Notes under the pieces: generated by a model
What the model saw: only the letters and a program-made list of their open reading frames with translations
Told to the model about the DNA's origin: nothing
The model's database searches: none
Source of the DNA: Syntrophomonadaceae bacterium
Lineage (GTDB): Bacteria; Bacillota; Dethiobacteria; DTU022
Direction: 5' to 3'
DNA: 64,000 bases
NCBI GenBank assembly: GCA_007132095.1
Contig: SLPH01000015.1
Location: 221 to 64,220 of the forward strand
Made by a program: the position numbers and the translations under genes
In this document: piece after piece, positions 3,467-56,835 of the stretch
Layout of the letters: every line of letters starts with the position of its first letter
How positions within the stretch are numbered: the first letter of the stretch is position 1

Positions 3467-4933
3467 TTGCTGGGAATTAAATCGTACGCGGGATATATAC
3501 CCCGCTATCGCTTGAACCGGATGACAATCTTTAGCTCCATGGGTTGGCTGAACCCGGCTATAATTATGAATGCGGCCGGTGAAAAATCCGTAGCCAATTA
3601 CGACGAAGATTCTGTAACCATGGCTGCTGCGGCCGGCCAGCGCTGCCTTGAAGGGATCGGGCCGGCGCAGGTTGGTGCGCTCTATTATGCTTCGACTACT
3701 TCTCCGTTCCGGGAACGTTCGGCTGCCAATATTGTATCGGCTGCGCTTGGCATTGAGGAAAATGTTCGAAGCGCCGATTTTGGCAGCTCAGCCAAGGCGG
3801 GGACAACCGCCCTCATAAGCGCGATCGAATTTTGCGCCGCTAACCCGGATTTGTCGGCGCTTGCCGCAGCCGCAGACTGCAGAATTGGTAAAGTCGGTTC
3901 TGTCCAGGAGATGGTCTTTGGCGATGCCGGAGCGGCTGTGATGGTAGGCAGTGATGACGTCATAGCCGAGTTTGACGGCTCCTATTCGGTTTCCTGCGAC
4001 TTTGTTGATCATCTGAGGGGATCAGAGAGCAGATATGATCGGCAGTGGGAGGAACGCTGGATCCGCGATCTTGGCTACGAGCGGATCATTCCCGAAGCAA
4101 TTCAGGCTTACCTGGACAAGTATGGCAGCAGGATTGAAGATTATACGAAGATTATCTACCCCTGTTACTACGGCGCGGCCAGAAAGAACATCAACCGCAA
4201 GCTTGGACTTAACCCGGCCCAGCTGCAGGATGACCTGATGATGGAATGCGGCGACAGCGGGTCTGCTCACCCCCTGTTGCTGCTGGCCGGCGCGCTTGAA
4301 AATGCATCTTCCGGCGATAAGCTGATGGTAATTGGGTTCGGTTATGGCTGTGATATCCTCGGTTTTACGGTTACAGAAGCTATAGATCATTATAAGGATA
4401 GACTGAGAGTTTCAGATTCTATTAAAAGAGAGGCCGAATTGGATAGCTTCACCAAGTACCTGGCCTGGCGCGACATGCTCCCCGTTGAGGTGGGCTTGCG
4501 CGGCGAGGAAGATAAAATAACCCGCTGGTCCATGGTCTGGCGCAACCGGGGCGCGATCCTGGGCTTAAAAGGGACTGTTTGCCTGGCCTGCGGAACCAGG
4601 CAGTACCCGCCGCAGCGTATTTGCGTAAACCCTGACTGCGGCGCCATTGACCAGATGGAACCATTCCGCTTTGCTGATCAGGGAGGTAAAGTTGTCAGTT
4701 TCACCTCTGACATGCTGGCCGCGACCATCAATCCTCCCGCTATTTACGGCAACATCGATTTTAACGGCGGAGGGCGCTGCATGATGGACTTTACCGATTG
4801 CGCCATGGAAGATCTGGAGGTTGGAAAAGCGGTAAAATTTACATTCAGGGTTAAGTATTATGACCGGCGGCGGGATACTACTTTCTACTTTTGGAAAGCG
4901 GTCCCGGCAGAGGAGGTGCCTGTAAATGGCTGA
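3467..4933 (+). CDS. HMG-CoA synthase / FabH-like condensing-enzyme fold fused to a C-terminal DUF35 zinc-ribbon + OB-fold domain
   Basis: TTG start after GGAGGGG. The N-terminal ~350 aa look thiolase/HMGCS-like. The C-terminus has a CLACGTRQYPPQRICVNPDCG zinc ribbon followed by a beta-rich OB-fold-like tail, which matches DUF35. The gene overlaps the next thiolase gene by 8 nt. Confidence 0.65.
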   Translation: MLGIKSYAGYIPRYRLNRMTIFSSMGWLNPAIIMNAAGEKSVANYDEDSVTMAAAAGQRCLEGIGPAQVGALYYASTTSPFRERSAANIVSAALGIEENVRSADFGSSAKAGTTALISAIEFCAANPDLSALAAAADCRIGKVGSVQEMVFGDAGAAVMVGSDDVIAEFDGSYSVSCDFVDHLRGSESRYDRQWEERWIRDLGYERIIPEAIQAYLDKYGSRIEDYTKIIYPCYYGAARKNINRKLGLNPAQLQDDLMMECGDSGSAHPLLLLAGALENASSGDKLMVIGFGYGCDILGFTVTEAIDHYKDRLRVSDSIKREAELDSFTKYLAWRDMLPVEVGLRGEEDKITRWSMVWRNRGAILGLKGTVCLACGTRQYPPQRICVNPDCGAIDQMEPFRFADQGGKVVSFTSDMLAATINPPAIYGNIDFNGGGRCMMDFTDCAMEDLEVGKAVKFTFRVKYYDRRRDTTFYFWKAVPAEEVPVNG

Positions 4934-6131
4934 TGGAATCAGGGATAAAGTGGCAATCCTTGGTATGGGTTGTTCCAGGTTTGGCGAGCGCTGGGAGGAC
5001 GATTCTTCCGATCTGATTATCGAAGCCTTCAGGGAATGCCTTGAAGATGCCGGAATTGAGAAAAACGAGGTTCAGGCGGCCTGGATCGGCAATCATATCG
5101 ATCAGGTTAATATTGGCAAAGGCGGGTGCTACCTGGGCAGCACGCTTCATCTTCCCTTTATTCCTATCACCAGGGTGGAAAATTTCTGCGCTTCAGGGAC
5201 AGAAGCTTTTCGCGGAGCTTGCTATGCCGTAGCTTCCGGAGCCTATGACATTGTTCTGGCCGCCGGCGTGGAAAAGCTGAAGGATGTGGGCTATGGCGGC
5301 CTGCCCGATGATCCAATTTTTGGCCAGCTCTACAGGCTGCTTGGTCCCAATGCGACCGCTCCGGGTCTTTTTGCCCAGCTGGCTACCGCTTATTCGGCCC
5401 GTTACGGTGTCCCGATGGAAAAGATTAAGCAGGCTCTTACGCATATTTCCTGGAAAAGCCACCAGAACGGGGCTATGAATCCGCGTGCCCACCTGCGAAA
5501 GGAAATCAGCGAAACCCAGATTGCCGATTCTCCTTTTGTCGCTTATCCCCTGGGCCTTTTTGACTGCTGCGGAGTCAGCGACGGGGCGGCCATGGCCATT
5601 GTAACAACCCCGGAAATTGCATCCCGGCTGAAACCGGGTCAGGACCAGGTTCGGGTCAAAGCTCTGCAGATTGCCGTTAGCTCCGGCGAAGAGCTGATCT
5701 ATAACCGCTGGGACGGAAGTAGTTTTATGACCACGCAGCATGCTGCCAGGAGGGCATATGCAGAAGCGGGGATCAGTAACCCCCGCGAAGAAATTGGCAT
5801 GATGGAAGTGCATGATTGCTTCTCAATTACGGAAATGGTTACCATGGAAGACCTGCAGGTATCGCCTCCCGGCCAGGCTCCGGATGACATTCTGGGCGGG
5901 TTCTTTGATCTTGACGGCCAGATACCGTGCCAGCCTGACGGCGGCCTTAAATGTTTTGGTCATCCCATCGGCGCTTCGGGCCTGCGCATGATCTTCGAGG
6001 TCTATAACCAGCTGCTCAGGCGCTGGCCGGAGGAAAGGCTGGTAAAAGAACCTAAGCTTGGCTTAACCCACAACCTGGGCGGGGTCCCTTCGCAAAATGT
6101 ATGCAGTATCGGAATCTTTGGTTTAAACTAA
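4926..6131 (+). CDS. SCP-x type (nonspecific lipid-transfer protein-like) thiolase
   Basis: N-terminus VAILGMGCSRFGERW is typical of SCPx/DitF-type thiolases, and a [11 protein letters not shown] motif lies near the C-terminus. 401 aa. Confidence 0.75.
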   Translation: MADGIRDKVAILGMGCSRFGERWEDDSSDLIIEAFRECLEDAGIEKNEVQAAWIGNHIDQVNIGKGGCYLGSTLHLPFIPITRVENFCASGTEAFRGACYAVASGAYDIVLAAGVEKLKDVGYGGLPDDPIFGQLYRLLGPNATAPGLFAQLATAYSARYGVPMEKIKQALTHISWKSHQNGAMNPRAHLRKEISETQIADSPFVAYPLGLFDCCGVSDGAAMAIVTTPEIASRLKPGQDQVRVKALQIAVSSGEELIYNRWDGSSFMTTQHAARRAYAEAGISNPREEIGMMEVHDCFSITEMVTMEDLQVSPPGQAPDDILGGFFDLDGQIPCQPDGGLKCFGHPIGASGLRMIFEVYNQLLRRWPEERLVKEPKLGLTHNLGGVPSQNVCSIGIFGLN

Positions 6132-9477: not shown

Positions 9478-9498
9478 TAAAGAAGGAGGTTGCATGCA

Positions 9499-10431
9499 AT
9501 GGCCGTTAACATGAAGGGCAAAGATATAATTTCCATTCATGATCTCAGCCGGGAAGAAGTAGATCAGATCCTTGGTACCGCTGGAATCCTGAAAATGAAG
9601 CAAAAACTGGGCGAGATATATCATCCTTTAAAGGGGAAAAGCCTCGGTATGATTTTCCAGAAATCGTCAACCCGGACCAGGGTTTCCTTTGAGGTGGGGA
9701 TGTGGCAGCTGGGCGGCTATGCGTTATTTCTCAGCGCCGCCGATTTGCAGCTAAAACGCGGCGAAACTATAGCAGACACGGCCAGGAACCTGAGTCGCTA
9801 TCTGGACGGGATCATGATTCGCACTTACGACCATGAAGATGTGGTCCAGATGGCCAAATACAGCTCGGTTCCGGTAATTAACGGTCTGACTGATCTGCTC
9901 CACCCGTGCCAGGTACTGGCCGACCTTTTTACGATCCTGGAAAAGAAAAGAAAGCTGGAAGGCTTGAAACTGGCCTATATCGGCGATGGCAACAATATGG
10001 CTCATTCGCTTATGTTCGGAGGGGCTAAGGTGGGGATGCATGTGGTGATCTGCGCCCCTTCGGGATTCGAACCTGACCCTGAAATCACCAGGCTTTCCAG
10101 GCTTGATGCTGCCAGGACAGGTTCAACAATCACGATCCAGGATGATCCCAGGGCTGCCGTTGAAACTGCAGACATTATTTATACCGATGTCTGGACCAGC
10201 ATGGGTATGGAAGAGGAATACGAACAGCGTCTGAAAAGCTTTTCACGCTACCAGGTCAATAGCGAACTATTAGAAAAAGCGAAAGAAGATGCCCTCGTTA
10301 TGCACTGCCTGCCTGCTCACCGGGGCGAAGAGATTACCGACGAAGTGATAGAAGGCCATCGCTCCATCGTATTTGACCAGGCTGAAAACCGCCTGCACGT
10401 TCAGAAAGCAATAATGGCGCTGATCATGTAA
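9499..10431 (+). CDS. argF: Ornithine carbamoyltransferase
   Basis: All four OTCase motifs are present: STRTR, HPCQ, DVWTSMG and HCLPAHRGEE. I chose the ATG 9 nt after GGAGG. The stop lies 15 nt before the giant downstream gene. Confidence 0.8.
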   Translation: MAVNMKGKDIISIHDLSREEVDQILGTAGILKMKQKLGEIYHPLKGKSLGMIFQKSSTRTRVSFEVGMWQLGGYALFLSAADLQLKRGETIADTARNLSRYLDGIMIRTYDHEDVVQMAKYSSVPVINGLTDLLHPCQVLADLFTILEKKRKLEGLKLAYIGDGNNMAHSLMFGGAKVGMHVVICAPSGFEPDPEITRLSRLDAARTGSTITIQDDPRAAVETADIIYTDVWTSMGMEEEYEQRLKSFSRYQVNSELLEKAKEDALVMHCLPAHRGEEITDEVIEGHRSIVFDQAENRLHVQKAIMALIM

Positions 10432-10446
10432 TAGTGGGAGGTTTTT

Positions 10447-13400
10447 ATGGGAACTGTAGAACAGGACAGATCGGATCTACCTGCAATAGGGCTTGACATA
10501 GGTGTATTTTCATCAAAGGGAGTACTGATAAAAGACGGGAGAATTGATTATATAACCGTTCCTACAGCCGGGCGCCCGGCTGAGGCTGCCTGGGGCTGTT
10601 TAAGCGCCCTGCTCGGTAAAGAGCTTAGCGGCAAAGCCCGTATTGGTATAATGGGCCAGAACGGAAAACTTGTTGCCGGCATTATCGGGCTGCAGCCGGT
10701 CCTCGAAATAGAAGCATTGCAGACCGGGCTGGAAAGCCTGCAAATCGGGGCTGAGTATGTAATATCGCTTGGCCATGAGAATATGCATTACCTTGAGCTG
10801 GATGAAAAGGGACGGATTAAATTTTTTAACCGTAATGGCCAGTGCGCCGCCGGTAGCGGATCGTTTTGGTACCAGCAGGCGACCCGCATGGGCTATAATG
10901 ATCGCCAGCTCGCTGAAATTGCGGCCGAAGCGGAAACGGCAGTTCCTATTTCCGGGCGCTGCGCTGTTTTCGCCAAGTCGGACATGACTCACGCAATCAA
11001 CGAAGGCGCCACCCAAAGCGCTGTCTCAGCCGGTATGGCTGCCGCCCTGGTGGAAACGGTAATTACCGGGGTGGCTTTAAACAGGATGCAGGGGCCGGCC
11101 ACGCTTGCCCTCAGCGGCGGCGTGGCAAATAATAAAGCGGTGACCAAGTATCTCAGGGCCTTTGCCGAAAAAAATGGGATTAAAGTAATTATTCCAGACA
11201 AACATGAATATATAAACGCTGTTGGAGCCGCATTAAAGGGGACGCCGATTGATTTAGGCACCCTGAACGAGAACGTGCTGAAAACCCCAAAGTTTAAAAC
11301 CGACCAGCCCCTGCCTCCGCTGGATCCGGGGCTGGTCCACTACCTGGAAAATGATCAGGCAAGCCCTGAATTTGATTTAAGCCGGGTTTACCTTGGAGTT
11401 GACTGCGGATCGGTCTCAACCAAGTGCGTTTTGCTCGATCAGCAGGGCGAAAAAATTGGAGGGATTTACCTTCCCACAACCGGCCGTCCCGCCCTGCAGG
11501 TTTTGCAGCTAATTCGTCACGTTGCCGATCGCTATGGGAAAATGCTCGAAGGTTCGCCTATTACGGTCTGCACTACCGGTTCAGGCCGCTTTCTGTCCCA
11601 AAAGATTCTGAACGCCGAGTATGCTGTTGATGAAATAACCTGCCAGGCCGAAGGATTGAAATACCTCTTTCCTGATGAACAGGCCCTGGCAATTATTGAA
11701 ATCGGCGGAGAAGATTCAAAGTTTGTCCAACTTAAGGAAGGTATTTTATACGACTACAACATGAACCCGGTTTGCGCGGCCGGAACGGGAACGTTTTTGG
11801 AAAACCTGGCCGAACTGCTTGGCGTCAAGATCGACGGCGAGTTCTCCCAGAAGGCCTTTCAGGCAGAGTATGCGGTAGACCTCGGCGATATCTGCACACT
11901 TATATCCCAATCGATCCTGGCTTCCGCATCAGCCAGGGGCCTGCCGCTGAACGAACAGCTGGCCAGCCTTGCTTATTCATCGGCCCAAAACTATCTCAGT
12001 AAAACAGTTGATAAGCGGCCCCTGGAAGGAAAGATTGTTTTTGCCGGGGCTACGGCAAAAAACAGCGCCCTTGCTGCAGCTTTGGCTACGATCTGCGAAA
12101 ATGAGATCACCGTGTCTGCCGAACCGGAACTGACAGGAGCGCTGGGTTGTGCCCTGATGGCCAGGCAGCTATACCGGAAAGGGAAAAAAGGATTATACTC
12201 ATTCCGCAACCTTTCTGATATAAGGAAGTTTACCACCGATAAGCGGCCCTGCAAGGCCGATTGCATTCATGAACATAACTGTATTCTTAACATAATAACT
12301 TTTGCTGACGGAAACAGATTCATTTACGGCGATCGCTGCGGACGTTTTTCGGGCCTGGAAAGACGCAGCGACCATTACGAGCTGCCGGATTACTGCGCTG
12401 AACGCAATGGACTCCTGGCCGGATATGAAAATGAAAAGAAAGAGACGGGTCCGCTGGTCTGCATGGCCCGCAGCGGTCTCTACTATGAATACTTTCCTTT
12501 CTGGTCGGCTTTTTTCAACAAGCTGGGCTGCAGGGTCTCCCTTTCAAAGTATTCTACCGCCGAAACCCTGGAAAAAGGCAAGGTCAGCCTTGATTCAGAG
12601 ATGTGTTACCCTATGAAGGTTATAGTCGGCCATTATGCAGAGCTGCTTGAGGGCGACTGCGATTATATTTTTATACCCGAAGTTGTGGATATGGAAGCCC
12701 TGCCCTGGACCGATCTTTGGCCTCGCTCCTTTGTCTGTCCGCTGCTGCAAACCCTGCGCGGAACAGTGGTCAACTCCCTGGATATTGATGAAAATAGAAT
12801 TCTCTATGCCCAGTTAAATTACCGGGCCGGCCCCAGGGTGATCCGGGATCAGCTTAAGCCCCTTGCATTCGAAATACTTGGTCCCGATTACAGCGAAGCC
12901 AGATTTGAACAGGCCCTGGATAGCGCTTACAGCGCCTTAAATGAATTCCGCGGCGAGCTTGTCGTAGCCGCTGAAAGAGCCCTGGAAAGCCTGGCCGGCA
13001 ATACCGATAACGGAGCTGTTGTCTTCCTGGGGAGAAGCTATACGCTTTACGACGACTACATAGCCAAGAAATCGATGCACTATGCCAGGGAAAGCGGGCT
13101 CTTTTCGCTGCCCCACGAATATCTCTTTTACTATATGTCGGCCTGGATGAAAGGGGAAATTAAATCGGCCTTTCTTGATCGCTACAGGCAGGAATTTAAA
13201 GATTACCTTGAACGGCATATCGAGATCATGGAAAATATCTACCCGGCCCAGCTGCAAAGAATGCTTTCTGTGGTCCTGCTGGTTAACTTTCTTAACCTGA
13301 AAAACGGCGAAACCGGTTTACCCCGCCTCAACCTGATCTTTCTCGATCCGTTCAAATGCGGGCCTAATGCCATGATGCGCCACTACTTAAGCGGCCTTTG

Positions 13401-14790
13401 CAGCTACCTCCGCTTAACGATAGACGAGCATACTGCCGCCGCCGGGATGATAACCCGGCTTGAGGCTTTCAAAAATACCTGTCTCTCTAACACCAGCGTC
13501 AGGCAGATAGAGATGCATTCATCGAAAACATGCTCGGTTACCGATGAAAACTGGAACAAGATCCTGATCCCTGAGCCGACCAGGCACGCTGCTATATTTG
13601 CTGCGCTGTTCAGGAGCGCCGGCGTTGAGGCGGAGGTTATTCCCCGCAGCAAAACCGGCGACCTTTCTTTAGCCCGAAAATATGTAAACGGCGAGGAATG
13701 TCTTCCATTCCTGCAAAACCTGCAGGATTTCCTGGCGTACCTGAAAAGCGAGGTTGTAAGCGAAGAGAGCAGGCCGGTTTTCTTCCAGGGATGGGCCTGC
13801 GGCCCCTGTCGGTACGGTCTATATGCACCCACCCAGGCTTTGGCCATTAACAGGGCGGGATTTGGCGAGATGAGGGTCTGTGCGATTAAGTTTAGCGACG
13901 TTGCAAAGAGGTTTGGATATGGGTTTGTCCTCGGCTTTTACAGCGCGGTTTTAACGATGGATATTCTCTATAAACTGCTGCATCGCGTCCGGCCTTATGA
14001 AACGAAAAAAGGCGAAGCAGACCAGGTTTTTGAGCGATATACCAACAGGCTTATCGAAGAGGCGGAAAAATTCCGCTTCCGGTTAGCGGCTTTCCCGGGA
14101 GGCCGCTACAGGAAACCTTTTGAGACGCTTATTGGTGAAGCGGCAGAAGAATTCGCCAGGATCGAGCGAAAAAGCGGAGTCAAGCCGAGGATTCTCTTAA
14201 ACGGCGAATTCTACGTGCGCCTCGACGATCGTTGTAACCAATCTGTGATCGATAAAATTGAGGCAGCGGGAGGAGAAGTCTCACTGGCCCCTGCGACCGA
14301 GTTATTCGCCTACACTATACACATTGATTACCTTGAAGCCATCCATTCGTTCAGGATCAACCGCAGGCCGGGCGATTATTTCAAGCGCATTTTCTATAAG
14401 CAGCTGATCAAGGTTGCCCATCGCGATGAAGCCGCTTTACACAAAGCTGCAGGACCTTTGCTGAGGGGACTTGAAGAACCTTCACCCGAAGAGATCATGC
14501 AGAGAGCGCAAAAATATGTATCGCCCCACTATGGCGGTGAACCGCCGATGACCATAGGCAGGGCAGCTGCTTTTGCCAGGAGGGGGAAGGCTGCAGGAGC
14601 AATTTTTGTCGCCCCCTTTACCTGCATGCCGGCCTCTGTCGTTGAAGCCCAGCAGGGAAGCCTCCAGGAGGAGCTCGGTATACCTATGGTAACAGTTTAT
14701 TACGATGGTAAAGAGAACAGCAACCGTGACGAGCTGGTCGAAGGGCTGGTTTTCCAGGCCCGTCAGCGTATCGGGGCCGGAAAAGCTTAA
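10447..14790 (+). CDS. Giant fusion of two BadF/BadG/BcrA/BcrD-type (HgdC-like) acyl-CoA dehydratase activase ATPase domains with a long C-terminal region I think matches DUF2229 (distantly HgdA/B-like)
   Basis: 1447 aa. The N-terminal ~600 aa hold two actin-fold ATPase repeats (IGLDIGVFSSKG..., VYLGVDCGSVSTKC...). The remaining ~850 aa carry Cys motifs CPLLQTLRG, FKCGPNAMMRHY, GWACGPCRYG and FTCMPASVV. The name DUF2229 is from memory and unverified. Confidence 0.7.
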   Translation: MGTVEQDRSDLPAIGLDIGVFSSKGVLIKDGRIDYITVPTAGRPAEAAWGCLSALLGKELSGKARIGIMGQNGKLVAGIIGLQPVLEIEALQTGLESLQIGAEYVISLGHENMHYLELDEKGRIKFFNRNGQCAAGSGSFWYQQATRMGYNDRQLAEIAAEAETAVPISGRCAVFAKSDMTHAINEGATQSAVSAGMAAALVETVITGVALNRMQGPATLALSGGVANNKAVTKYLRAFAEKNGIKVIIPDKHEYINAVGAALKGTPIDLGTLNENVLKTPKFKTDQPLPPLDPGLVHYLENDQASPEFDLSRVYLGVDCGSVSTKCVLLDQQGEKIGGIYLPTTGRPALQVLQLIRHVADRYGKMLEGSPITVCTTGSGRFLSQKILNAEYAVDEITCQAEGLKYLFPDEQALAIIEIGGEDSKFVQLKEGILYDYNMNPVCAAGTGTFLENLAELLGVKIDGEFSQKAFQAEYAVDLGDICTLISQSILASASARGLPLNEQLASLAYSSAQNYLSKTVDKRPLEGKIVFAGATAKNSALAAALATICENEITVSAEPELTGALGCALMARQLYRKGKKGLYSFRNLSDIRKFTTDKRPCKADCIHEHNCILNIITFADGNRFIYGDRCGRFSGLERRSDHYELPDYCAERNGLLAGYENEKKETGPLVCMARSGLYYEYFPFWSAFFNKLGCRVSLSKYSTAETLEKGKVSLDSEMCYPMKVIVGHYAELLEGDCDYIFIPEVVDMEALPWTDLWPRSFVCPLLQTLRGTVVNSLDIDENRILYAQLNYRAGPRVIRDQLKPLAFEILGPDYSEARFEQALDSAYSALNEFRGELVVAAERALESLAGNTDNGAVVFLGRSYTLYDDYIAKKSMHYARESGLFSLPHEYLFYYMSAWMKGEIKSAFLDRYRQEFKDYLERHIEIMENIYPAQLQRMLSVVLLVNFLNLKNGETGLPRLNLIFLDPFKCGPNAMMRHYLSGLCSYLRLTIDEHTAAAGMITRLEAFKNTCLSNTSVRQIEMHSSKTCSVTDENWNKILIPEPTRHAAIFAALFRSAGVEAEVIPRSKTGDLSLARKYVNGEECLPFLQNLQDFLAYLKSEVVSEESRPVFFQGWACGPCRYGLYAPTQALAINRAGFGEMRVCAIKFSDVAKRFGYGFVLGFYSAVLTMDILYKLLHRVRPYETKKGEADQVFERYTNRLIEEAEKFRFRLAAFPGGRYRKPFETLIGEAAEEFARIERKSGVKPRILLNGEFYVRLDDRCNQSVIDKIEAAGGEVSLAPATELFAYTIHIDYLEAIHSFRINRRPGDYFKRIFYKQLIKVAHRDEAALHKAAGPLLRGLEEPSPEEIMQRAQKYVSPHYGGEPPMTIGRAAAFARRGKAAGAIFVAPFTCMPASVVEAQQGSLQEELGIPMVTVYYDGKENSNRDELVEGLVFQARQRIGAGKA

Positions 14791-17839: not shown

Positions 17840-18793
17840 GTGAGAATTGTCGCAGCGCTGGGCGGAAATGCGCTTTTAAAGTCTGGCCAGAAAGGAACGG
17901 CCGAAGAGCAATACGCCAACATTGAAACGGCCTGCCGGCAGCTGGTCCGGATTGCAGCTGAACATGAACTGGTTATTACCCACGGCAACGGGCCCCAGGT
18001 AGGAAGAATCAATTTGCAAAATGAAGCGGCCCGGGAAGAAACCCCCACGCTGCCGCTTGATATTTGCGGAGCTATGTCGCAGGGTCAGATCGGTTACATG
18101 CTCCAGCAGGGGCTCAGCAAAGAGCTGTCCAGGCAGGGCCTGGAACTGGATCCGGTTACGGTTGTGACCAGGATTCTGGTTTGCAAAGATGACCCAACCC
18201 TGGTCAGCCCCGGCAAGCCGATCGGATCCTATTTCAGCCGGAAAGAGGCGGAAGCCCGGGCCAGGGACCTGGGGGAAAAATGGATTGAAGATAAAACCAG
18301 GGGCGGCTGGCGCAAAGTGGTGGCATCGCCCAGGCCGGTATGGATTGTTGAAGAAAGGGCGATCAAGACCCTGCTCGAAAACCGGTTCCTCGTGATTGCC
18401 CTGGGCGGGGGAGGAATTCCAGTGCTGGGAAGCGAACAGGGAGGTTACCAGGGCGTTGAAGCGGTAGTAGACAAAGATCTGGCCGGGGGTATCCTTGCCG
18501 ATGCGGTGGGAGCGACCATCTTTCTCATTCTCACCGATGTGCCCGCAGTCTATCTTGATTACGGTAAGCCGACGCAGCGCCCCTTAGGAACAGTCAGCCT
18601 GGACGAGATGGTCAGCTATTCCAGGGAAGGTCACTTTGCAGCCGGAAGCATGGGACCCAAGGTTGAAGCGGCTGTTAAGTTTGCCCGCGAAAGAGGGCAT
18701 AAAACGATAATTACTTCGCTGGAACTGGCCCTGGAAGCGATTGAAGGCAGGGCCGGAACCTGCCTGGCAGCAAGCGGCTGCGGCGAGGCATAA
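17840..18793 (+). CDS. arcC: Carbamate kinase (YqeA/ArcC-like)
   Basis: MRIVAALGGNALL ... VITHGNGPQVG is canonical for carbamate kinase. 317 aa. It sits directly upstream of YqeB/YqeC, as in yqeA-yqeB-yqeC loci. Confidence 0.8.
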   Translation: MRIVAALGGNALLKSGQKGTAEEQYANIETACRQLVRIAAEHELVITHGNGPQVGRINLQNEAAREETPTLPLDICGAMSQGQIGYMLQQGLSKELSRQGLELDPVTVVTRILVCKDDPTLVSPGKPIGSYFSRKEAEARARDLGEKWIEDKTRGGWRKVVASPRPVWIVEERAIKTLLENRFLVIALGGGGIPVLGSEQGGYQGVEAVVDKDLAGGILADAVGATIFLILTDVPAVYLDYGKPTQRPLGTVSLDEMVSYSREGHFAAGSMGPKVEAAVKFARERGHKTIITSLELALEAIEGRAGTCLAASGCGEA

Positions 18794-18841: not shown

Positions 18842-19669
18842 ATGAACACTGCGCTGCCCGGGCCGGTTTTGATCAAAGGCGCCGGCGACCTGGCCTCAGG
18901 GGTCGCACACCGTCTTTACCGGGCCGGCTTTGATATAATTATGCTTGAGCTGCCCCAGCCCCTGGTTGTCAGGCGGACGGCATCCTTTGCCGAAGCGGTA
19001 TTCAGGGGCGAAACCGTCCTGGAAGAGGTGAAGGCAAGGTTTTGCCCGACAGCGGAGAGCGCTGACCGAATTCTGCAGCGAAAAGAGATCCCTGTTATTG
19101 TTGACCCGGCGGGGCAGTCACGATTGCGCTTTAATCCGCCGGTCCTTATAGACGCTATTATGGCGAAGCGGAATACAGGCACTGCTCTTAGCGATGCTCC
19201 CCTTGTTATAGGTCTTGGGCCCGGTTTCTCAGCGGGAAGCGATGTTCACGTTGTTGTTGAAACAATGCGGGGCCACAACCTGGGCCGGGTCATTTATGAA
19301 GGAGAGGCTGAAGCTAATACTGACCTACCCGGCGAAGTTGGCGGAAAAGATCTGGAAAGGCTGCTGAGATCTCCCGGGGAAGGCAGATTTGAGCCGCTCT
19401 GTTCAATCGGCGATCTTGTGGAAAAGGGGCAGTTAGTGGCAAAAGTGGGCGCCGGTGAAATCATTGCCGCAACGGGGGGATTGATCAGGGGTCTTCTCTA
19501 TCCCGGGATCCTGGTAAAGCCCGGCATGAAAGTGGGCGATATTGACCCTCGCGGCAGTTCTGTTGACTGGAGAACCATATCCGATAAAGCAAGATCGATT
19601 GGCGGCGGCGTATTAGAGGCTGTAATGCACCATTTCTTTTTCCGGGAGATTGACAGGGAGGGGTCATAA
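18842..19669 (+). CDS. Selenium-dependent molybdenum hydroxylase system protein, YqeB family (short form)
   Basis: 275 aa with an N-terminal Rossmann-like IKGAGDLASGVAHRLYRAGF. The size and N-terminal motif fit the YqeB family as I recall it. Context: flanked by carbamate kinase and YqeC. Confidence 0.55.
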   Translation: MNTALPGPVLIKGAGDLASGVAHRLYRAGFDIIMLELPQPLVVRRTASFAEAVFRGETVLEEVKARFCPTAESADRILQRKEIPVIVDPAGQSRLRFNPPVLIDAIMAKRNTGTALSDAPLVIGLGPGFSAGSDVHVVVETMRGHNLGRVIYEGEAEANTDLPGEVGGKDLERLLRSPGEGRFEPLCSIGDLVEKGQLVAKVGAGEIIAATGGLIRGLLYPGILVKPGMKVGDIDPRGSSVDWRTISDKARSIGGGVLEAVMHHFFFREIDREGS

Positions 19670-21048
19670 TGAGAACCATGTCCCTGGCAGCCTGTCTAGA
19701 CCTGAAGAGAAACAGGGTCGTTTCCTTTTACGGCGCCGGGGGGAAAACCACCCTTATGCACCGCCTCGCTTCTGAACTGGCGGCGCTTGGTAAAAGAGTG
19801 CTGGTTACGACAACAACCAGGATCTACCCCCATCCGGCCCACAGGATAGTTTTCGCAAATAATGCAGGGCAGGTACGGGACATGCTGCAGGCGGGGCTTG
19901 CCAAAGAGCGCATCTGTATTGCCGCTGCCGGCATAGATGAAGGTAAGCTTATCGGTTTTGAGCCTCGCCTGATTGACGAACTGAAAGAACTGGACGACTT
20001 TTTTATTCTCGTCGAAGCAGATGGTTCGAAAGGTAAATCGCTCAAAGGTTTTGCCTTTCACGAACCGGTTATTCCGGCTTCATCCGATTTGATTGTTCCG
20101 CTGGCAGGGCTTGACGCCCTGGGCGGAACCCATGATCACGAAACAGTCCACCGCCTCCCGGAGCTGCTGGCCCTCACCGGGGCCAAAGAGGGAGAGATGA
20201 TCGGGGAAAGGCATATTGCCTCATATTTTAACCACGCTGTACGTCTGGGTTCCGCCCAGGCGCCTGGAGCGGCAATTATTCCGGCTTTAAACAAGAGCGA
20301 TCTTCTAACTAACCCGGCTTTTGCAACCTGGACCATTTCCTCCTTACTGACAGATGTAAAAATGATTAAATCGGTGATCGCTGTCCGGGTGGCAGGGGAA
20401 ATGCCGGTAAAAGCAATCTTTCCTTTTATAGGCGCGGGACCGGAAATTAAAATAACCGCGGTTATACTCGCCGCAGGAAGGGCCGCCAGGATGGGTAGAG
20501 ATAAACTCTCTCTTCAATTCGGAGAAAAAACAATCCTCGAACAGACCCTGGATAATGTAAGGTCAGGCGGAATAGAAGATATTGTTATAGTGATTCAGCC
20601 GGGCAGCCACTGGCCGGCAAAAATCAATTATGCCGGGGTCAGGTTTACCGAAAACCCGGATTATCATACCGGGCAGGCCAGTTCGGTCAAAGCCGCATTA
20701 AATGCGCTTGATCCGTATACACAGGCGGCCATGTTCGTTCTGGCTGACCAGCCGATGGTCGAGCCGGACATATACCGGCAGCTCGCAGGCAGCTACCGGG
20801 GCGCTCTCAAGCCCGTTACCTGCCCGGTTTTTAACGGCGCCAGGGGCAACCCGGCCATATTCGACCGTATTCTGTGGCCGGAACTGGCTCTGCTGAGCGG
20901 TGACACCGGGGGAAGGGCCATTATAAGCGAGCTTCCGGGCGCAATGATCGATCCTGTGCCGGTACGGTCTCCTTCGGTGCTTCAAGACATAGACACCGGC
21001 GAAGACTATAAACAACACCTTTCCGGCAGCAATAACCGGAAAACATAA
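19669..21048 (+). CDS. Fusion: YqeC-type P-loop accessory protein (N-term) + MocA/MobA-like molybdenum cofactor cytidylyl/nucleotidyl-transferase (C-term)
   Basis: N-terminal P-loop SFYGAGGKTTLMHRLA and a TTTTRIYP segment are YqeC-like. The C-terminal half carries ITAVILAAGRAARMGRDKL, the MobA/MocA glycine-rich NTP-transferase motif. The start overlaps the YqeB stop. Confidence 0.6.
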   Translation: MRTMSLAACLDLKRNRVVSFYGAGGKTTLMHRLASELAALGKRVLVTTTTRIYPHPAHRIVFANNAGQVRDMLQAGLAKERICIAAAGIDEGKLIGFEPRLIDELKELDDFFILVEADGSKGKSLKGFAFHEPVIPASSDLIVPLAGLDALGGTHDHETVHRLPELLALTGAKEGEMIGERHIASYFNHAVRLGSAQAPGAAIIPALNKSDLLTNPAFATWTISSLLTDVKMIKSVIAVRVAGEMPVKAIFPFIGAGPEIKITAVILAAGRAARMGRDKLSLQFGEKTILEQTLDNVRSGGIEDIVIVIQPGSHWPAKINYAGVRFTENPDYHTGQASSVKAALNALDPYTQAAMFVLADQPMVEPDIYRQLAGSYRGALKPVTCPVFNGARGNPAIFDRILWPELALLSGDTGGRAIISELPGAMIDPVPVRSPSVLQDIDTGEDYKQHLSGSNNRKT

Positions 21049-22179: not shown

Positions 22180-22255
22180 TGGTGAGCCATCTAGGATTCG
22201 AACCTAGGACACCCTGATTAAAAGTCAGGTGCTCTACCAACTGAGCTAATGGCCC
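22180..22255 (-). tRNA. tRNA-Lys (anticodon TTT)
   Basis: The reverse complement folds as a cloverleaf: GGGCCAT acceptor, CTTTTAA anticodon loop, GGTTCGAATCC T-arm, encoded CCA. Confidence 0.9.
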
Positions 22256-22256
22256 A

Positions 22257-22345
22257 TGGTGGTGGAGAGGACTGGATTCGAACCAGTGAAGGCGCTGCCA
22301 GCAGATTTACAGTCTGCCCCCTTTGGCCAACTTGGGTACCTCTCC
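22257..22345 (-). tRNA. tRNA-Tyr (anticodon GTA)
   Basis: Reverse complement: GGAGAGG acceptor, CTGTAAA anticodon loop, long variable arm, GGTTCGAATCC T-arm, CCA. Confidence 0.85.
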
Positions 22346-22356
22346 ATGTCTATCTG

Positions 22357-22431
22357 TGGAGCCGACGAAGGGACTCGAACCCCCAACCTGCTGATTACAA
22401 ATCAGCTGCTCTTCCGTTGAGCTACGTCGGC
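22357..22431 (-). tRNA. tRNA-Thr (anticodon TGT)
   Basis: Reverse complement: GCCGACG acceptor, TTTGTAA anticodon loop, GGTTCGAGTCC T-arm, CCA. Confidence 0.9.
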
Positions 22432-28103: not shown

Positions 28104-28179
28104 AGGGGAGTAGCTCAACTGGCAGAGCAGCGGTCTCCAAAACCGCAGGCTGCGGGTTCAAGTCCTGTCTCCCCTGCCA
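28104..28179 (+). tRNA. tRNA-Trp (anticodon CCA)
   Basis: AGGGGAG acceptor, CTCCAAA anticodon loop, GGTTCAAGTCC T-arm, encoded CCA. Confidence 0.9.
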
Positions 28180-47607: not shown

Positions 47608-47880
47608 AAAAAAAACGCCTCCAAGAGACGAAAATTATGCTTTCCGTGATACCACTCTTCTTGGCAGCATGACGTCTACCGCCCACTCTTTATGATAACG
47701 GAAGTCTCCGGCCAGCCCTACTTGCGAAGTGGAAAGGTGTTGCCTTTCCTGCTTTCAGGTGGCGGCTCCCGGAGGAGTTCGCCGGCTTTTTCATACCGTT
47801 TTGCACCTGCCAACGGTTCTCTGAAAATGAATGGGCCGATTACTGGTTCCGGTCATCGCCTTTTCAATATTAAACTGATA
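47608..47880 (-). promoter_or_regulatory. Candidate T-box leader (leucine-specific) upstream of leuA
   Basis: Read on the minus strand. A stem-loop ggcg-AACUCCUCCGGGAG-ccgcc exposes a CUC leucine codon. A T-box-like AGAGUGGUAUCACGG sits immediately 5' of a terminator hairpin CGUCUC-UUG-GAGGCG followed by U8. The leader is about 315 nt. Confidence 0.45.
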
Positions 47881-56759: not shown

Positions 56760-56835
56760 TGGCTGCGGGACTAGGGATCGAACCTAGGCTTGGTGATCCA
56801 GAGTCACCCGTGCTACCGCTACACCATCCCGCAGC
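56760..56835 (-). tRNA. tRNA-Gln (anticodon CTG)
   Basis: The reverse complement folds as a cloverleaf with a CTCTGGA anticodon loop, GGTTCGATCC T-arm and CCA. It lies downstream of gltX on the same strand. Confidence 0.9.

What the first reader, a model, noticed from the sequence alone, without database searches (positions are those of the whole stretch)
10447..14790. 1447-aa single-chain fusion of two radical-enzyme activase ATPases with an HgdAB-like C-terminal half
Both BcrAD/BadFG/HgdC-type ATPase repeats and a long C-terminal region carrying four conserved Cys motifs (CPLL, KCGPNAM, ACGPCRYG, FTCMP) are fused into one polypeptide. Stand-alone HgdC-type activators deliver electrons to separate HgdAB/BcrBC-type partners. 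Here the activator pair and a dehydratase-like [4Fe-4S] module are covalently joined. The gene sits at the end of an acyl-CoA metabolism operon. The function of these giant proteins is, as far as I know, undefined. This copy offers a concrete substrate context of glutaconyl/crotonyl/branched acyl-CoA.
Basis: partly seen in the sequence, partly recalled or inferred. Interest (0 to 1): 0.55.

Follow-up and report, generated by a model that had tools for sequence, protein, structure and literature searches.

The report
Single-chain PlsA/Ger-type ether-lipid synthase homolog

Summary

The statement that the function is undefined is out of date. This Act1-Act2-Red1-Red2 architecture is that of plasmalogen synthase PlsA/PlsR (2021) and glycerol ester reductase Ger (2022), both validated by expression in E. 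coli. I recovered the validated C. perfringens plsA-plsR operon. The window protein is colinear with PlsA then PlsR (E 2e-65 and 4e-13) and keeps every cysteine, but is only 24-26% identical.

It belongs to a discrete Bacillota clade (53-68% identity inside, at most 33% outside). That clade lies nearer a broad non-PlsA branch (Brocadiia, Deltaproteobacteria, Armatimonadota MAGs) than the PlsA group. No Ger sequence could be obtained.

The acyl-CoA/OTCase linkage holds only in relatives at 65% identity or more, where the whole neighbourhood is syntenic. Elsewhere the neighbours vary (Lgt twice, TetR plus radical SAM).

Best reading: an ATP-driven Fe-S reductase that makes ether lipids. Whether the product is a vinyl or an alkyl ether is undetermined. 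New member of a known kind, modest interest.

The parts
10436..10441 (+). Shine-Dalgarno GGGAGG, 5 nt before the ATG and 15 nt after the OTCase stop; probably co-transcribed with argF
   Evidence: sequence read directly
10447..14790 (+). Whole gene: 1447-aa single-chain Act1-Act2-linker-Red1-Red2 protein (PlsA/PlsR-Ger superfamily)
10480..11244 (+). Act1 (about residues 12-266): first BcrAD/BadFG ASKHA ATPase repeat. It keeps both cluster Cys (C133, C172) but has non-canonical phosphate motifs (DIGVFSSK; LGHEN at residues 107-111)
   Evidence: (74.2 bits, matches profile positions 116-269 only)
11386..12180 (+). Act2 (about residues 314-578): second, fully canonical ATPase repeat (DCGSVSTK, EIGGEDSK) with cluster Cys C443 and C483
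   Evidence: (HadI 4eht E 1.7e-27; HgdC 1hux E 8.6e-25; DCCP-R 7yyl_E)
12238..12351 (+). 4-Cys linker (residues 598-635: C602-x3-C606-x5-C612-x18-C631), a small beta-rich module; an extra metal site (Fe-S or Zn, unresolved)
   Evidence: 82/82 conserved; aligned with PlsA C602/C605/C609/C628; beta strands, pLDDT about 70
12448..13476 (+). Red1 (about residues 668-1010): DUF2229 module with HAD/BCR catalytic-subunit fold; 3-Cys site C720, C764, C971
13552..14766 (+). Red2 (about residues 1036-1440): second HAD/BCR-like module, equivalent to PlsR; 3-Cys site C1085, C1121, C1393 plus the clade-specific C1118
   Evidence: (DUF2229 E 0.003; HGD-D E 0.15)

Best explanation
The gene encodes a self-contained, single-chain member of the PlsA/PlsR-Ger family of anaerobic ether-lipid synthases.

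Proposed mechanism; every step is inferred by homology and none was shown for this protein. (1) The two ATPase repeats fold as an intramolecular HgdC-like pseudo-dimer. They hold one [4Fe-4S] cluster through C133/C172 and C443/C483, and that cluster is reduced by ferredoxin or flavodoxin. (2) ATP binding and hydrolysis, probably mainly at the canonical Act2 site, drives a conformational change. This injects the low-potential electron, possibly through the 4-Cys linker site, into the 3-Cys [4Fe-4S] clusters of Red1 and Red2. (3) The sn-1 acyl-ester carbonyl of a membrane glycerophospholipid binds at the open iron of a Red cluster. It is reduced through a ketyl-type radical in successive electron/proton steps and then dehydrated to a 1-alk-1'-enyl (vinyl) ether. 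In Ger-type enzymes it is reduced further to a saturated 1-O-alkyl ether.

The product type for this clade cannot be assigned from sequence. The clade lies nearer the non-PlsA branch of the family. The gene works as a stand-alone unit and is not part of the upstream acyl-CoA genes.
For: Architecture: identical to that reported for Ger ('BBD' plus small D/H hits) and PlsA (Act1-Act2-Red1-Red2): PMC13159169, PMC12838417. The window protein gives B, B, D, then weak D (E 0.003) and H (E 0.15).

Direct comparison with the validated C. perfringens operon. I recovered it with both published cloning primers, which lie 4,199 bp apart, the fragment size quoted for Jackson's clone. PlsA aligns colinearly to window residues 63-867 (E 2e-65) and PlsR to residues 1021-1295 (E 4e-13).

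Cysteines: all 14 candidate ligand Cys align between the window protein and PlsA/PlsR. They are conserved in 82/82 full-length superfamily representatives.

Fold: the C-terminal half has the HAD/BCR/DCCP catalytic fold.

Genomic behaviour: stand-alone. There are 10 contexts with no conserved partner. Lgt, which uses phosphatidylglycerol, lies directly upstream in two of them, and TetR plus a radical-SAM gene lie downstream in a Dethiobacteria contig. The validated enzymes also act alone in E. coli. The Listeria homolog is likewise solitary.

Taxonomy: Dethiobacter sp., a taxon that carries the clade, is listed among Bacillota with co-occurring Ger and Mss homologs.

Size: 1447 aa, against 1415-1639 aa for validated single-gene PlsA.
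Against: Identity to validated or presumed plasmalogen synthases is only 24-26% globally. That is below the >30% identity cut-off the field uses for calling homologs.

The clade is discrete and long-branched. HMMER scores fall from 1265 bits (own cluster) to 370 bits, which leaves room for neofunctionalisation.

No Ger sequence (T. maritima AGL49404, D. alkenivorans SHJ90043) could be obtained, so a phylogenetic bracket by validated enzymes is not shown.

Homology alone does not guarantee activity. The T. geofontis and Ca. Kuenenia homologs gave no ethers in E. coli.

Act1 has degenerate ATP-binding motifs in this clade.

No lipid data exist for any carrier of the clade. The nearest relatives do keep the gene next to thiolase and CoA-transferase genes.
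Confidence: 0.6

Rival explanations
1. One reading: the same ATP-driven ketyl machinery acts on a CoA thioester supplied by the upstream genes (glutaconyl-, crotonyl- or branched acyl-CoA). The protein would then be a fused 2-hydroxyacyl-CoA dehydratase or acyl-CoA reductase with its own activator.
For: The fold and Cys pattern match HadBC and BzdNO. The gene follows CoA-transferase A/B, thiolase and OTCase with a 15-nt gap. That order recurs in four members of the clade. A paper speculated that a similar Ruminococcus protein is an acyl-CoA reductase. The clade is divergent.
Against: The linkage disappears at 53-59% identity, in six contexts. Where it persists, the genes on both sides are also syntenic (YolD, DinB, YqeC, MTAP, MtnA), so shared ancestry explains it. 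The intervening OTCase pairs with carbamate kinase downstream, not with acyl-CoA chemistry. No member of the DUF2229-containing fused family has been shown to use a CoA ester, whereas six have been shown to make ether lipids. The HGD-D Pfam model is not matched (12 bits against a cutoff of 28.4). No sequence-level hit to any HAD or BCR catalytic subunit was found in the PDB.
Confidence: 0.17
2. A fused double-cubane-cluster-protein (DCCP/DCCP-R, YjiL/YjiM-like) system that reduces small molecules at an [8Fe-9S] cluster.
Against: The DCCP 7-Cys motif (CX19CX18-19CX29CX166-170CX32-34CX32C; PMC7317905) is absent. Each Red module has only 3 universally conserved Cys, plus one clade-specific Cys in Red2. 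The protein also carries DUF2229, which marks PlsA and Ger, not DCCP.
Confidence: 0.04
3. A decaying or regulatory relic: the degenerate Act1 nucleotide site means the enzyme no longer couples ATP hydrolysis to reduction.
For: Act1 has GVF in place of GST and LGHEN in place of GG(E/Q)D.
Against: These substitutions are themselves 80-90% conserved across the clade. All 14 metal-ligand Cys and the whole 1447-aa frame are intact in more than 100 homologs at 53-68% identity. That pattern indicates purifying selection on a working protein. Asymmetric activator pairs are normal in BCR (BcrA/BcrD, MbdP/MbdQ).
Confidence: 0.03

Closest known systems
PlsA/PlsR anaerobic plasmalogen synthase (C. perfringens CPE1194-1195, UniProt Q8XL48/Q8XL47; single-gene forms in E. 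faecalis EF1327, L. cremoris, B. longum; the Listeria homolog)
   Same: Same domain order, Act1-Act2-4Cys linker-Red1 | Red2. Colinear alignment (E 2e-65 and 4e-13). All 14 candidate ligand Cys are shared. DUF2229 is present. Same size class. Stand-alone gene.
   Different: Only 24-26% identical, whereas C. perfringens and Listeria are 48% identical to each other. The DUF2229 score is half as high (146 against 277 bits). Act1 phosphate motifs are degenerate here and canonical in PlsA. There is an extra Cys (C1118) in Red2, where PlsR has Gly. Here the protein is one chain; in C. perfringens it is two genes.
Ger, glycerol ester reductase ('modified PlsA'; T. maritima Tmari_0479/AGL49404, D. alkenivorans SHJ90043)
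   Same: The reported Pfam architecture, BBD followed by short D and H hits, matches what I find here: B, B, D, weak D, weak H. The window clade is nearer the broad non-PlsA branch, which contains Brocadiia and Deltaproteobacteria MAG proteins (31-33% identity), than the PlsA group (24-26%). The literature places Kuenenia and D. alkenivorans 'modified PlsA' together.
   Different: No Ger sequence could be obtained, so identity and tree position relative to Ger are unknown. The field itself states that Ger and PlsA cannot be told apart from primary sequence (PMC13274423).
2-hydroxyacyl-CoA dehydratases with separate activator (HadBC + HadI, HgdAB + HgdC)
   Different: All parts are fused into one chain. 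The two activator copies are non-identical. There is an extra 4-Cys linker. No sequence-level match to HadB/C or to HGD-D. Characterised relatives of the fused family act on lipid oxygen-esters, not CoA thioesters.
Class I ATP-dependent benzoyl-CoA reductases (BzdNOPQ, MbdONPQ)
   Different: A four-subunit complex rather than one chain. It includes an [8Fe-9S] cluster (title of PMC11971306), for which the Cys count here is insufficient. Its substrate is an aromatic CoA ester.

Membership tests
HgdC/BcrAD/BadFG 'archerase' activator ATPases (PF01869, TIGR00241) | ASKHA ATPase domain matching the family models above the curated cutoffs, present twice | tested here: met
   PF01869 186.6 bits (cutoff 31.5), 2 stretches; TIGR00241 224.6 bits (cutoff 125.4), 2 stretches. 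PDB hits to HadI, HgdC, DCCP-R and MbdQ/P.
HgdC/BcrAD/BadFG 'archerase' activator ATPases (PF01869, TIGR00241) | Two Cys per ATPase domain to hold the interfacial [4Fe-4S] cluster | tested here: met
   C133, C172, C443 and C483 are conserved in 82/82 representatives and in PlsA. Cluster binding itself was not tested.
HgdC/BcrAD/BadFG 'archerase' activator ATPases (PF01869, TIGR00241) | Canonical phosphate-1 (DxGSTxxK) and phosphate-2 (GG[E/Q]D) nucleotide motifs in both copies | tested here: not met
   Act2 is canonical. Act1 reads DIGVFSSK and LGHEN, conserved within the clade. Only one site looks hydrolysis-competent; this is an inference.
HAD/BCR/DCCP catalytic subunits (HgdAB-like) | Catalytic-subunit three-dimensional fold, twice in tandem | tested here: met
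HAD/BCR/DCCP catalytic subunits (HgdAB-like) | Sequence membership in Pfam HGD-D (PF06050) | tested here: not met
   Best hit is 12 bits, E 0.15, against a cutoff of 28.4. No PDB sequence hit to any catalytic subunit.
HAD/BCR/DCCP catalytic subunits (HgdAB-like) | CoA-thioester substrate | not testable with these tools
   Needs biochemistry. Characterised DUF2229-type relatives act on glycerolipid esters.
PlsA/PlsR-Ger anaerobic ether-lipid synthases | Domain order: two activation domains, DUF2229 reduction domain, second reduction/dehydration module (Act1-Act2-Red1-Red2; 'BBD...') | tested here: met
   compared with the descriptions in PMC13159169 and PMC12838417. The same Pfam pattern was obtained on validated PlsA/PlsR.
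PlsA/PlsR-Ger anaerobic ether-lipid synthases | Significant full-length colinear homology to an experimentally validated member | tested here: met
   Against C. perfringens PlsA: E 2e-65 over residues 63-867. Against PlsR: E 4e-13 over residues 1021-1295.
PlsA/PlsR-Ger anaerobic ether-lipid synthases | The field's operational cut-off: E<=1e-30 (or 1e-50) and >30% identity to the validated reference (T. maritima Ger) | not tested
   The Ger sequence could not be obtained. Against PlsA as a substitute reference, the E-value criterion is met but identity is 26%, below 30%. Identity is 31-33% to Brocadiia, Deltaproteobacteria and Armatimonadota relatives of unvalidated function.
PlsA/PlsR-Ger anaerobic ether-lipid synthases | Conservation of all cluster-ligand cysteines | tested here: met
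   14/14 align with PlsA/PlsR and are conserved in 82/82 representatives.
PlsA/PlsR-Ger anaerobic ether-lipid synthases | PlsA signature motifs described by Jackson et al. 2021 | not tested
   The paper (PMC7812594) is not held.
PlsA/PlsR-Ger anaerobic ether-lipid synthases | Formation of vinyl- or alkyl-ether glycerolipids | not testable with these tools
   Requires anaerobic heterologous expression and lipid GC-MS.
Double-cubane cluster proteins (DCCP / YjiM) | 7-Cys motif for an [8Fe-9S] cluster | tested here: not met
   Only 3 universally conserved Cys per Red module, against the motif given in PMC7317905.

The most novel reading that the evidence does not exclude
This discrete Bacillota clade has four distinguishing features: at most 33% identity to anything outside it, an apparently dead Act1 nucleotide site, a clade-specific fourth Cys (C1118, CxxC) that could close the open iron of the Red2 cluster, and retention next to thiolase/CoA-transferase genes in one sublineage. 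The most novel reading is that the clade has diverged in function. It might apply the PlsA/Ger ATP-driven ketyl chemistry to a different ester or thioester (for example an acyl-CoA), or to a different lipid position or step (an sn-2 ether, or vinyl-to-alkyl reduction).
Probability: 0.15. Interest if true: 0.6.

Novelty: new member of a known kind. Interest (0 to 1): 0.25.

Why it matters
As first stated ('giant activase-dehydratase fusions of undefined function') the finding would have been notable before 2021. Today the architecture is explained.

Three practical points remain.

(1) Public annotation has not caught up. Sources name this protein and even the Listeria pls homolog 'acyl-CoA dehydratase activase' or '2-hydroxyacyl-CoA dehydratase', which invites the acyl-CoA reading made here.

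(2) The family is very large: 2,683 representatives at 50% clustering. It splits into deep branches, and only a handful of members have been tested. The field cannot yet tell vinyl-ether from alkyl-ether makers by sequence. A discrete clade with a distinctive Act1 site and an extra Red2 cysteine is a reasonable candidate for mapping that specificity.

(3) If active, the gene predicts ether lipids in uncultured anaerobic Bacillota, including Dethiobacteria. This bears on the sources of bacterial ether lipids and brGDGT-type biomarkers.

Tried and rejected
1. Fetching the validated E. faecalis plsA from genome contigs with the published primers. The forward 20-mer gave 0 hits. The reverse 19-mer gave 105 AT-rich chance hits, none encoding a homolog.

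2. Obtaining a Ger sequence (T. maritima, D. alkenivorans). There were no sequences in the held supplements. A thermophile-composition screen of representatives was followed by cluster look-ups and homolog searches with P0223 and P0163. These returned Brevinematia, Hydrothermales, Acidobacteriota, Deltaproteobacteria, Brocadiia and Armatimonadota MAGs, but no Thermotoga or Desulfatibacillum.

3. Jackson et al. 2021 (PMC7812594) is not held, so the PlsA motifs were not checked.

4. The AFDB50 fold library was unavailable.

5. The promoter/terminator scan was no better than shuffled sequence.

6. The radical-SAM gene next to the Dethiobacteria homolog could not be identified as Mss. NCBIfam gave only generic SPASM-type hits.

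7. I considered the published rule that one activation domain indicates plasmalogen and two indicate alkyl ether. I rejected it as a discriminator here, because in my Pfam run the validated plasmalogen synthase PlsA of C. perfringens also shows two BcrAD_BadFG stretches.

8. I looked for a second copy in the window and found none.

9. The DCCP reading was rejected on the Cys count.

Full report
OBSERVATION. Window 10447-14790 (+) is one uninterrupted ORF of 1447 codons. It starts at an ATG preceded by GGGAGG at 10436-10441, 15 nt after the stop of an ornithine carbamoyltransferase gene. NCBIfam TIGR00241 'acyl-CoA dehydratase activase' also matches twice, above its cutoff. An identical protein is called in NCBI assembly GCA_007123165.1. 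More than 100 independent homologs of 1440-1465 aa share the architecture, among more than 3352 hits, so the fusion is real.

WHAT IS ALREADY KNOWN. The claim that such proteins have no defined function is out of date. Sahonero-Canavesi et al. [quoted passage not shown] It has two PF01869 domains, one PF09989 domain and short further D/H hits. They show that the T. maritima and D. alkenivorans genes make 1-O-alkyl glycerol ethers in E. coli, and only under anaerobic conditions. Ger is a homolog of the plasmalogen synthase PlsA/PlsR of C. perfringens (Jackson 2021, cited). In E. faecalis, L. cremoris and B. longum the plasmalogen synthase is a single gene of 4,248-4,920 bp with domains Act1-Act2-Red1-Red2. 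Each of these produces plasmalogens when expressed in E. coli (PMC12838417).

DIRECT COMPARISON WITH A VALIDATED ENZYME. No tool supplies reference sequences by name, so I used the published cloning primers as exact DNA patterns. The E. faecalis primers failed. The C. perfringens forward primer hit 11 metagenome contigs. In L109 the forward and reverse primers lie 4,199 bp apart, which is the fragment size quoted for Jackson's clone. They bracket two ORFs, PlsA (975 aa) and PlsR (420 aa). The window protein aligns colinearly with PlsA over residues 63-867 (26% identity, E 2e-65) and with PlsR over residues 1021-1295 (21% identity, E 4e-13). All 14 cysteines have aligned partners. PlsA/PlsR give the same Pfam pattern, B, B, D | weak D. 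A single-chain Listeria monocytogenes homolog (1475 aa, named '2-hydroxyacyl-CoA dehydratase' by PGAP) was recovered from the plasmid collection. Listeria is cited as a plasmalogen producer with a pls ortholog.

POSITION IN THE FAMILY. An exhaustive HMMER search with the C-terminal half found 2,683 representatives at E<=1e-3, of which 306 are at E<=1e-30. The window protein has one full-length representative in its own 50% cluster (1265 bits). The score then drops to 370 bits at 34% identity. In a distance tree the window clade is a single long branch nested among the representatives, and C. perfringens PlsA+PlsR is the most divergent sequence. Global identities are as follows. C. perfringens against Listeria: 48%. 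Window against either of those: 24-26%. Those proteins against the PlsA group: 26-29%. Those proteins among themselves: 32-42%. So the window clade is a discrete group within a broad non-PlsA branch. Named members are Bacillota and Dethiobacteria MAGs. The literature groups the Kuenenia (Brocadiia) and D. alkenivorans 'modified PlsA' together. It is therefore plausible, but not shown, that Ger lies in the same branch. I could not obtain any Ger sequence. The field itself states that Ger and PlsA cannot be distinguished from primary sequence, and that some genomes hold several PlsA-like paralogs of unclear role (PMC13274423).

GENOMIC CONTEXT. The genes upstream in the window are an SDR, a MaoC hydratase, an HMG-CoA-synthase-like protein fused to a ChsH2 zinc ribbon, a thiolase-like protein, CoA-transferase A/B, acetyl-CoA acetyltransferase and OTCase. 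Downstream, convergent yolD-dinB are followed by a family III CoA-transferase, carbamate kinase, YqeB/YqeC/MocA, MTAP and MtnA. The thiolase-OTCase-giant gene order recurs in four clade members at 65-100% identity, where the genes on both sides are also syntenic. At 53-59% identity the neighbours differ. They are DUF1538/P-II ... TetR plus radical SAM, RNase H-Lgt directly upstream, DUF1538/P-II/rubredoxin, universal stress proteins, and the end of an ATP synthase operon. There is no conserved partner, which fits an enzyme that is self-sufficient when moved into E. coli. OTCase's catabolic partner, carbamate kinase, sits on the far side of the gene, so the locus is a mosaic and not one acyl-CoA pathway. 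Dethiobacter sp. is listed among Bacillota with co-occurring Ger and Mss homologs. The radical-SAM neighbour in the Dethiobacteria contig could not be identified as Mss.

MECHANISM (INFERRED). By homology with HgdC/HadI, BCR and DCCP-R, the two ATPase repeats should form a pseudo-dimer around one [4Fe-4S] cluster held by four Cys. ATP-driven conformational change should deliver a low-potential electron to the 3-Cys clusters of Red1 and Red2, possibly through the 4-Cys linker site. [quoted passage not shown] By that route the sn-1 ester carbonyl of a phospholipid would be reduced and dehydrated to a vinyl ether, or reduced further to an alkyl ether in Ger-type enzymes. What is shown here is domain content, fold, Cys conservation and homology to a validated enzyme. 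Cluster types, the electron path, the substrate and the product are all inferred.

CLADE-SPECIFIC FEATURES. In Act1 the phosphate-1 and phosphate-2 motifs read GLDIGVF.VK and LGHEN, and this is 80-90% conserved in the clade. PlsA, most representatives and all Act2 copies have DxGS(T)xxK and GG(E/Q)D. Only Act2 looks competent for hydrolysis. C1118 makes a CxxC with C1121 in Red2, which could provide a fourth ligand. These features, together with the long branch, are the reason I leave 15-20% for a diverged function.

VERDICT. The protein is a new, divergent member of a known kind, the PlsA/PlsR-Ger ether-lipid synthases. Confidence in the lipid function is 0.6. Interest is 0.25.

Noticed in passing
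window 10765-10779 (residues 107-111) and 10492-10524 (residues 16-26): ATPase repeat 1 has non-canonical ASKHA nucleotide motifs (LGHEN in place of GG[E/Q]D; DIGVFSSK in place of DxGSTxxK). These are conserved within the clade but not in PlsA or most of the superfamily. This suggests an asymmetric activator with one hydrolysing site.
   Followed up: partly
window 13798-13800 (C1118): A clade-specific cysteine forms a CxxC with the universally conserved C1121 in Red2. PlsR has Gly at this position, and other representatives mostly have Asp, Ser or Thr. It could be a fourth ligand to the Red2 cluster.
   Followed up: partly
window 12250-12339 (C602...C631): A universally conserved 4-Cys module (C-x2/3-C-x3/5-C-x18-C) lies between the ATPase pair and Red1. 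It is beta-rich in the model. It is not named in any paper passage I read. It could bind Fe-S or zinc.
   Followed up: partly
window 3467-6131: An HMG-CoA-synthase-like protein fused to a ChsH2/DUF35-type zinc ribbon (488 aa) is followed by a thiolase-like protein (PRK06157, 634 bits) and preceded by an SDR and a MaoC hydratase. From my own knowledge, this resembles the archaeal thiolase/HMGCS/DUF35 type of condensing complex, here within a beta-oxidation-like gene set.
   Followed up: no
window 9490-10431 and 17840-18793: Ornithine carbamoyltransferase and carbamate kinase, a catabolic ATP-yielding pair, are separated by the giant gene, convergent yolD-dinB and a family III CoA-transferase. 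Next come YqeB/YqeC/MocA, the selenium-dependent molybdenum-cofactor maturation genes (18842-21048).
   Followed up: partly
window 22180-22431 (-), 28104-28179 (+), 56760-56833 (-), 47621-47865 (-): A tRNA-Lys/Tyr/Thr cluster, tRNA-Trp, tRNA-Gln and a T-box leader (120.7 bits). The T-box fits a Bacillota origin.
   Followed up: no
L119:14644-16886 (Dethiobacteria MAG GCA_049684075.1): A TetR-family regulator and a 460-aa SPASM-type radical-SAM gene lie immediately downstream of the clade homolog P0034. [quoted passage not shown] Identity with Mss could not be tested.
   Followed up: partly
L122:9227-9964 and L129:6176-6955: Prolipoprotein diacylglyceryl transferase (Lgt), which uses phosphatidylglycerol, lies 36-45 nt upstream of the clade homolog in two contigs, preceded by RNase H. 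A third contig has Lgt 9 kb away (L124).
   Followed up: partly
L132:4016-8443 (L. monocytogenes NCTC7974) and the names: Public annotation names members of this family 'acyl-CoA dehydratase activase' or '2-hydroxyacyl-CoA dehydratase'. This includes the homolog in Listeria, a reported plasmalogen producer. No NCBIfam model specific to PlsA or Ger matched.
   Followed up: yes
L109:6694-9618 (C. perfringens PlsA): In my Pfam run the validated plasmalogen synthase PlsA shows two BcrAD_BadFG stretches. The published tendency that one activation domain goes with plasmalogens and two with alkyl ethers therefore does not separate these cases.
   Followed up: yes
Genome-contig scans: Neither published E. 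faecalis K-4 plsA primer has an exact match in the species-representative genome collection. The C. perfringens primers matched 11 metagenome contigs exactly.
   Followed up: no
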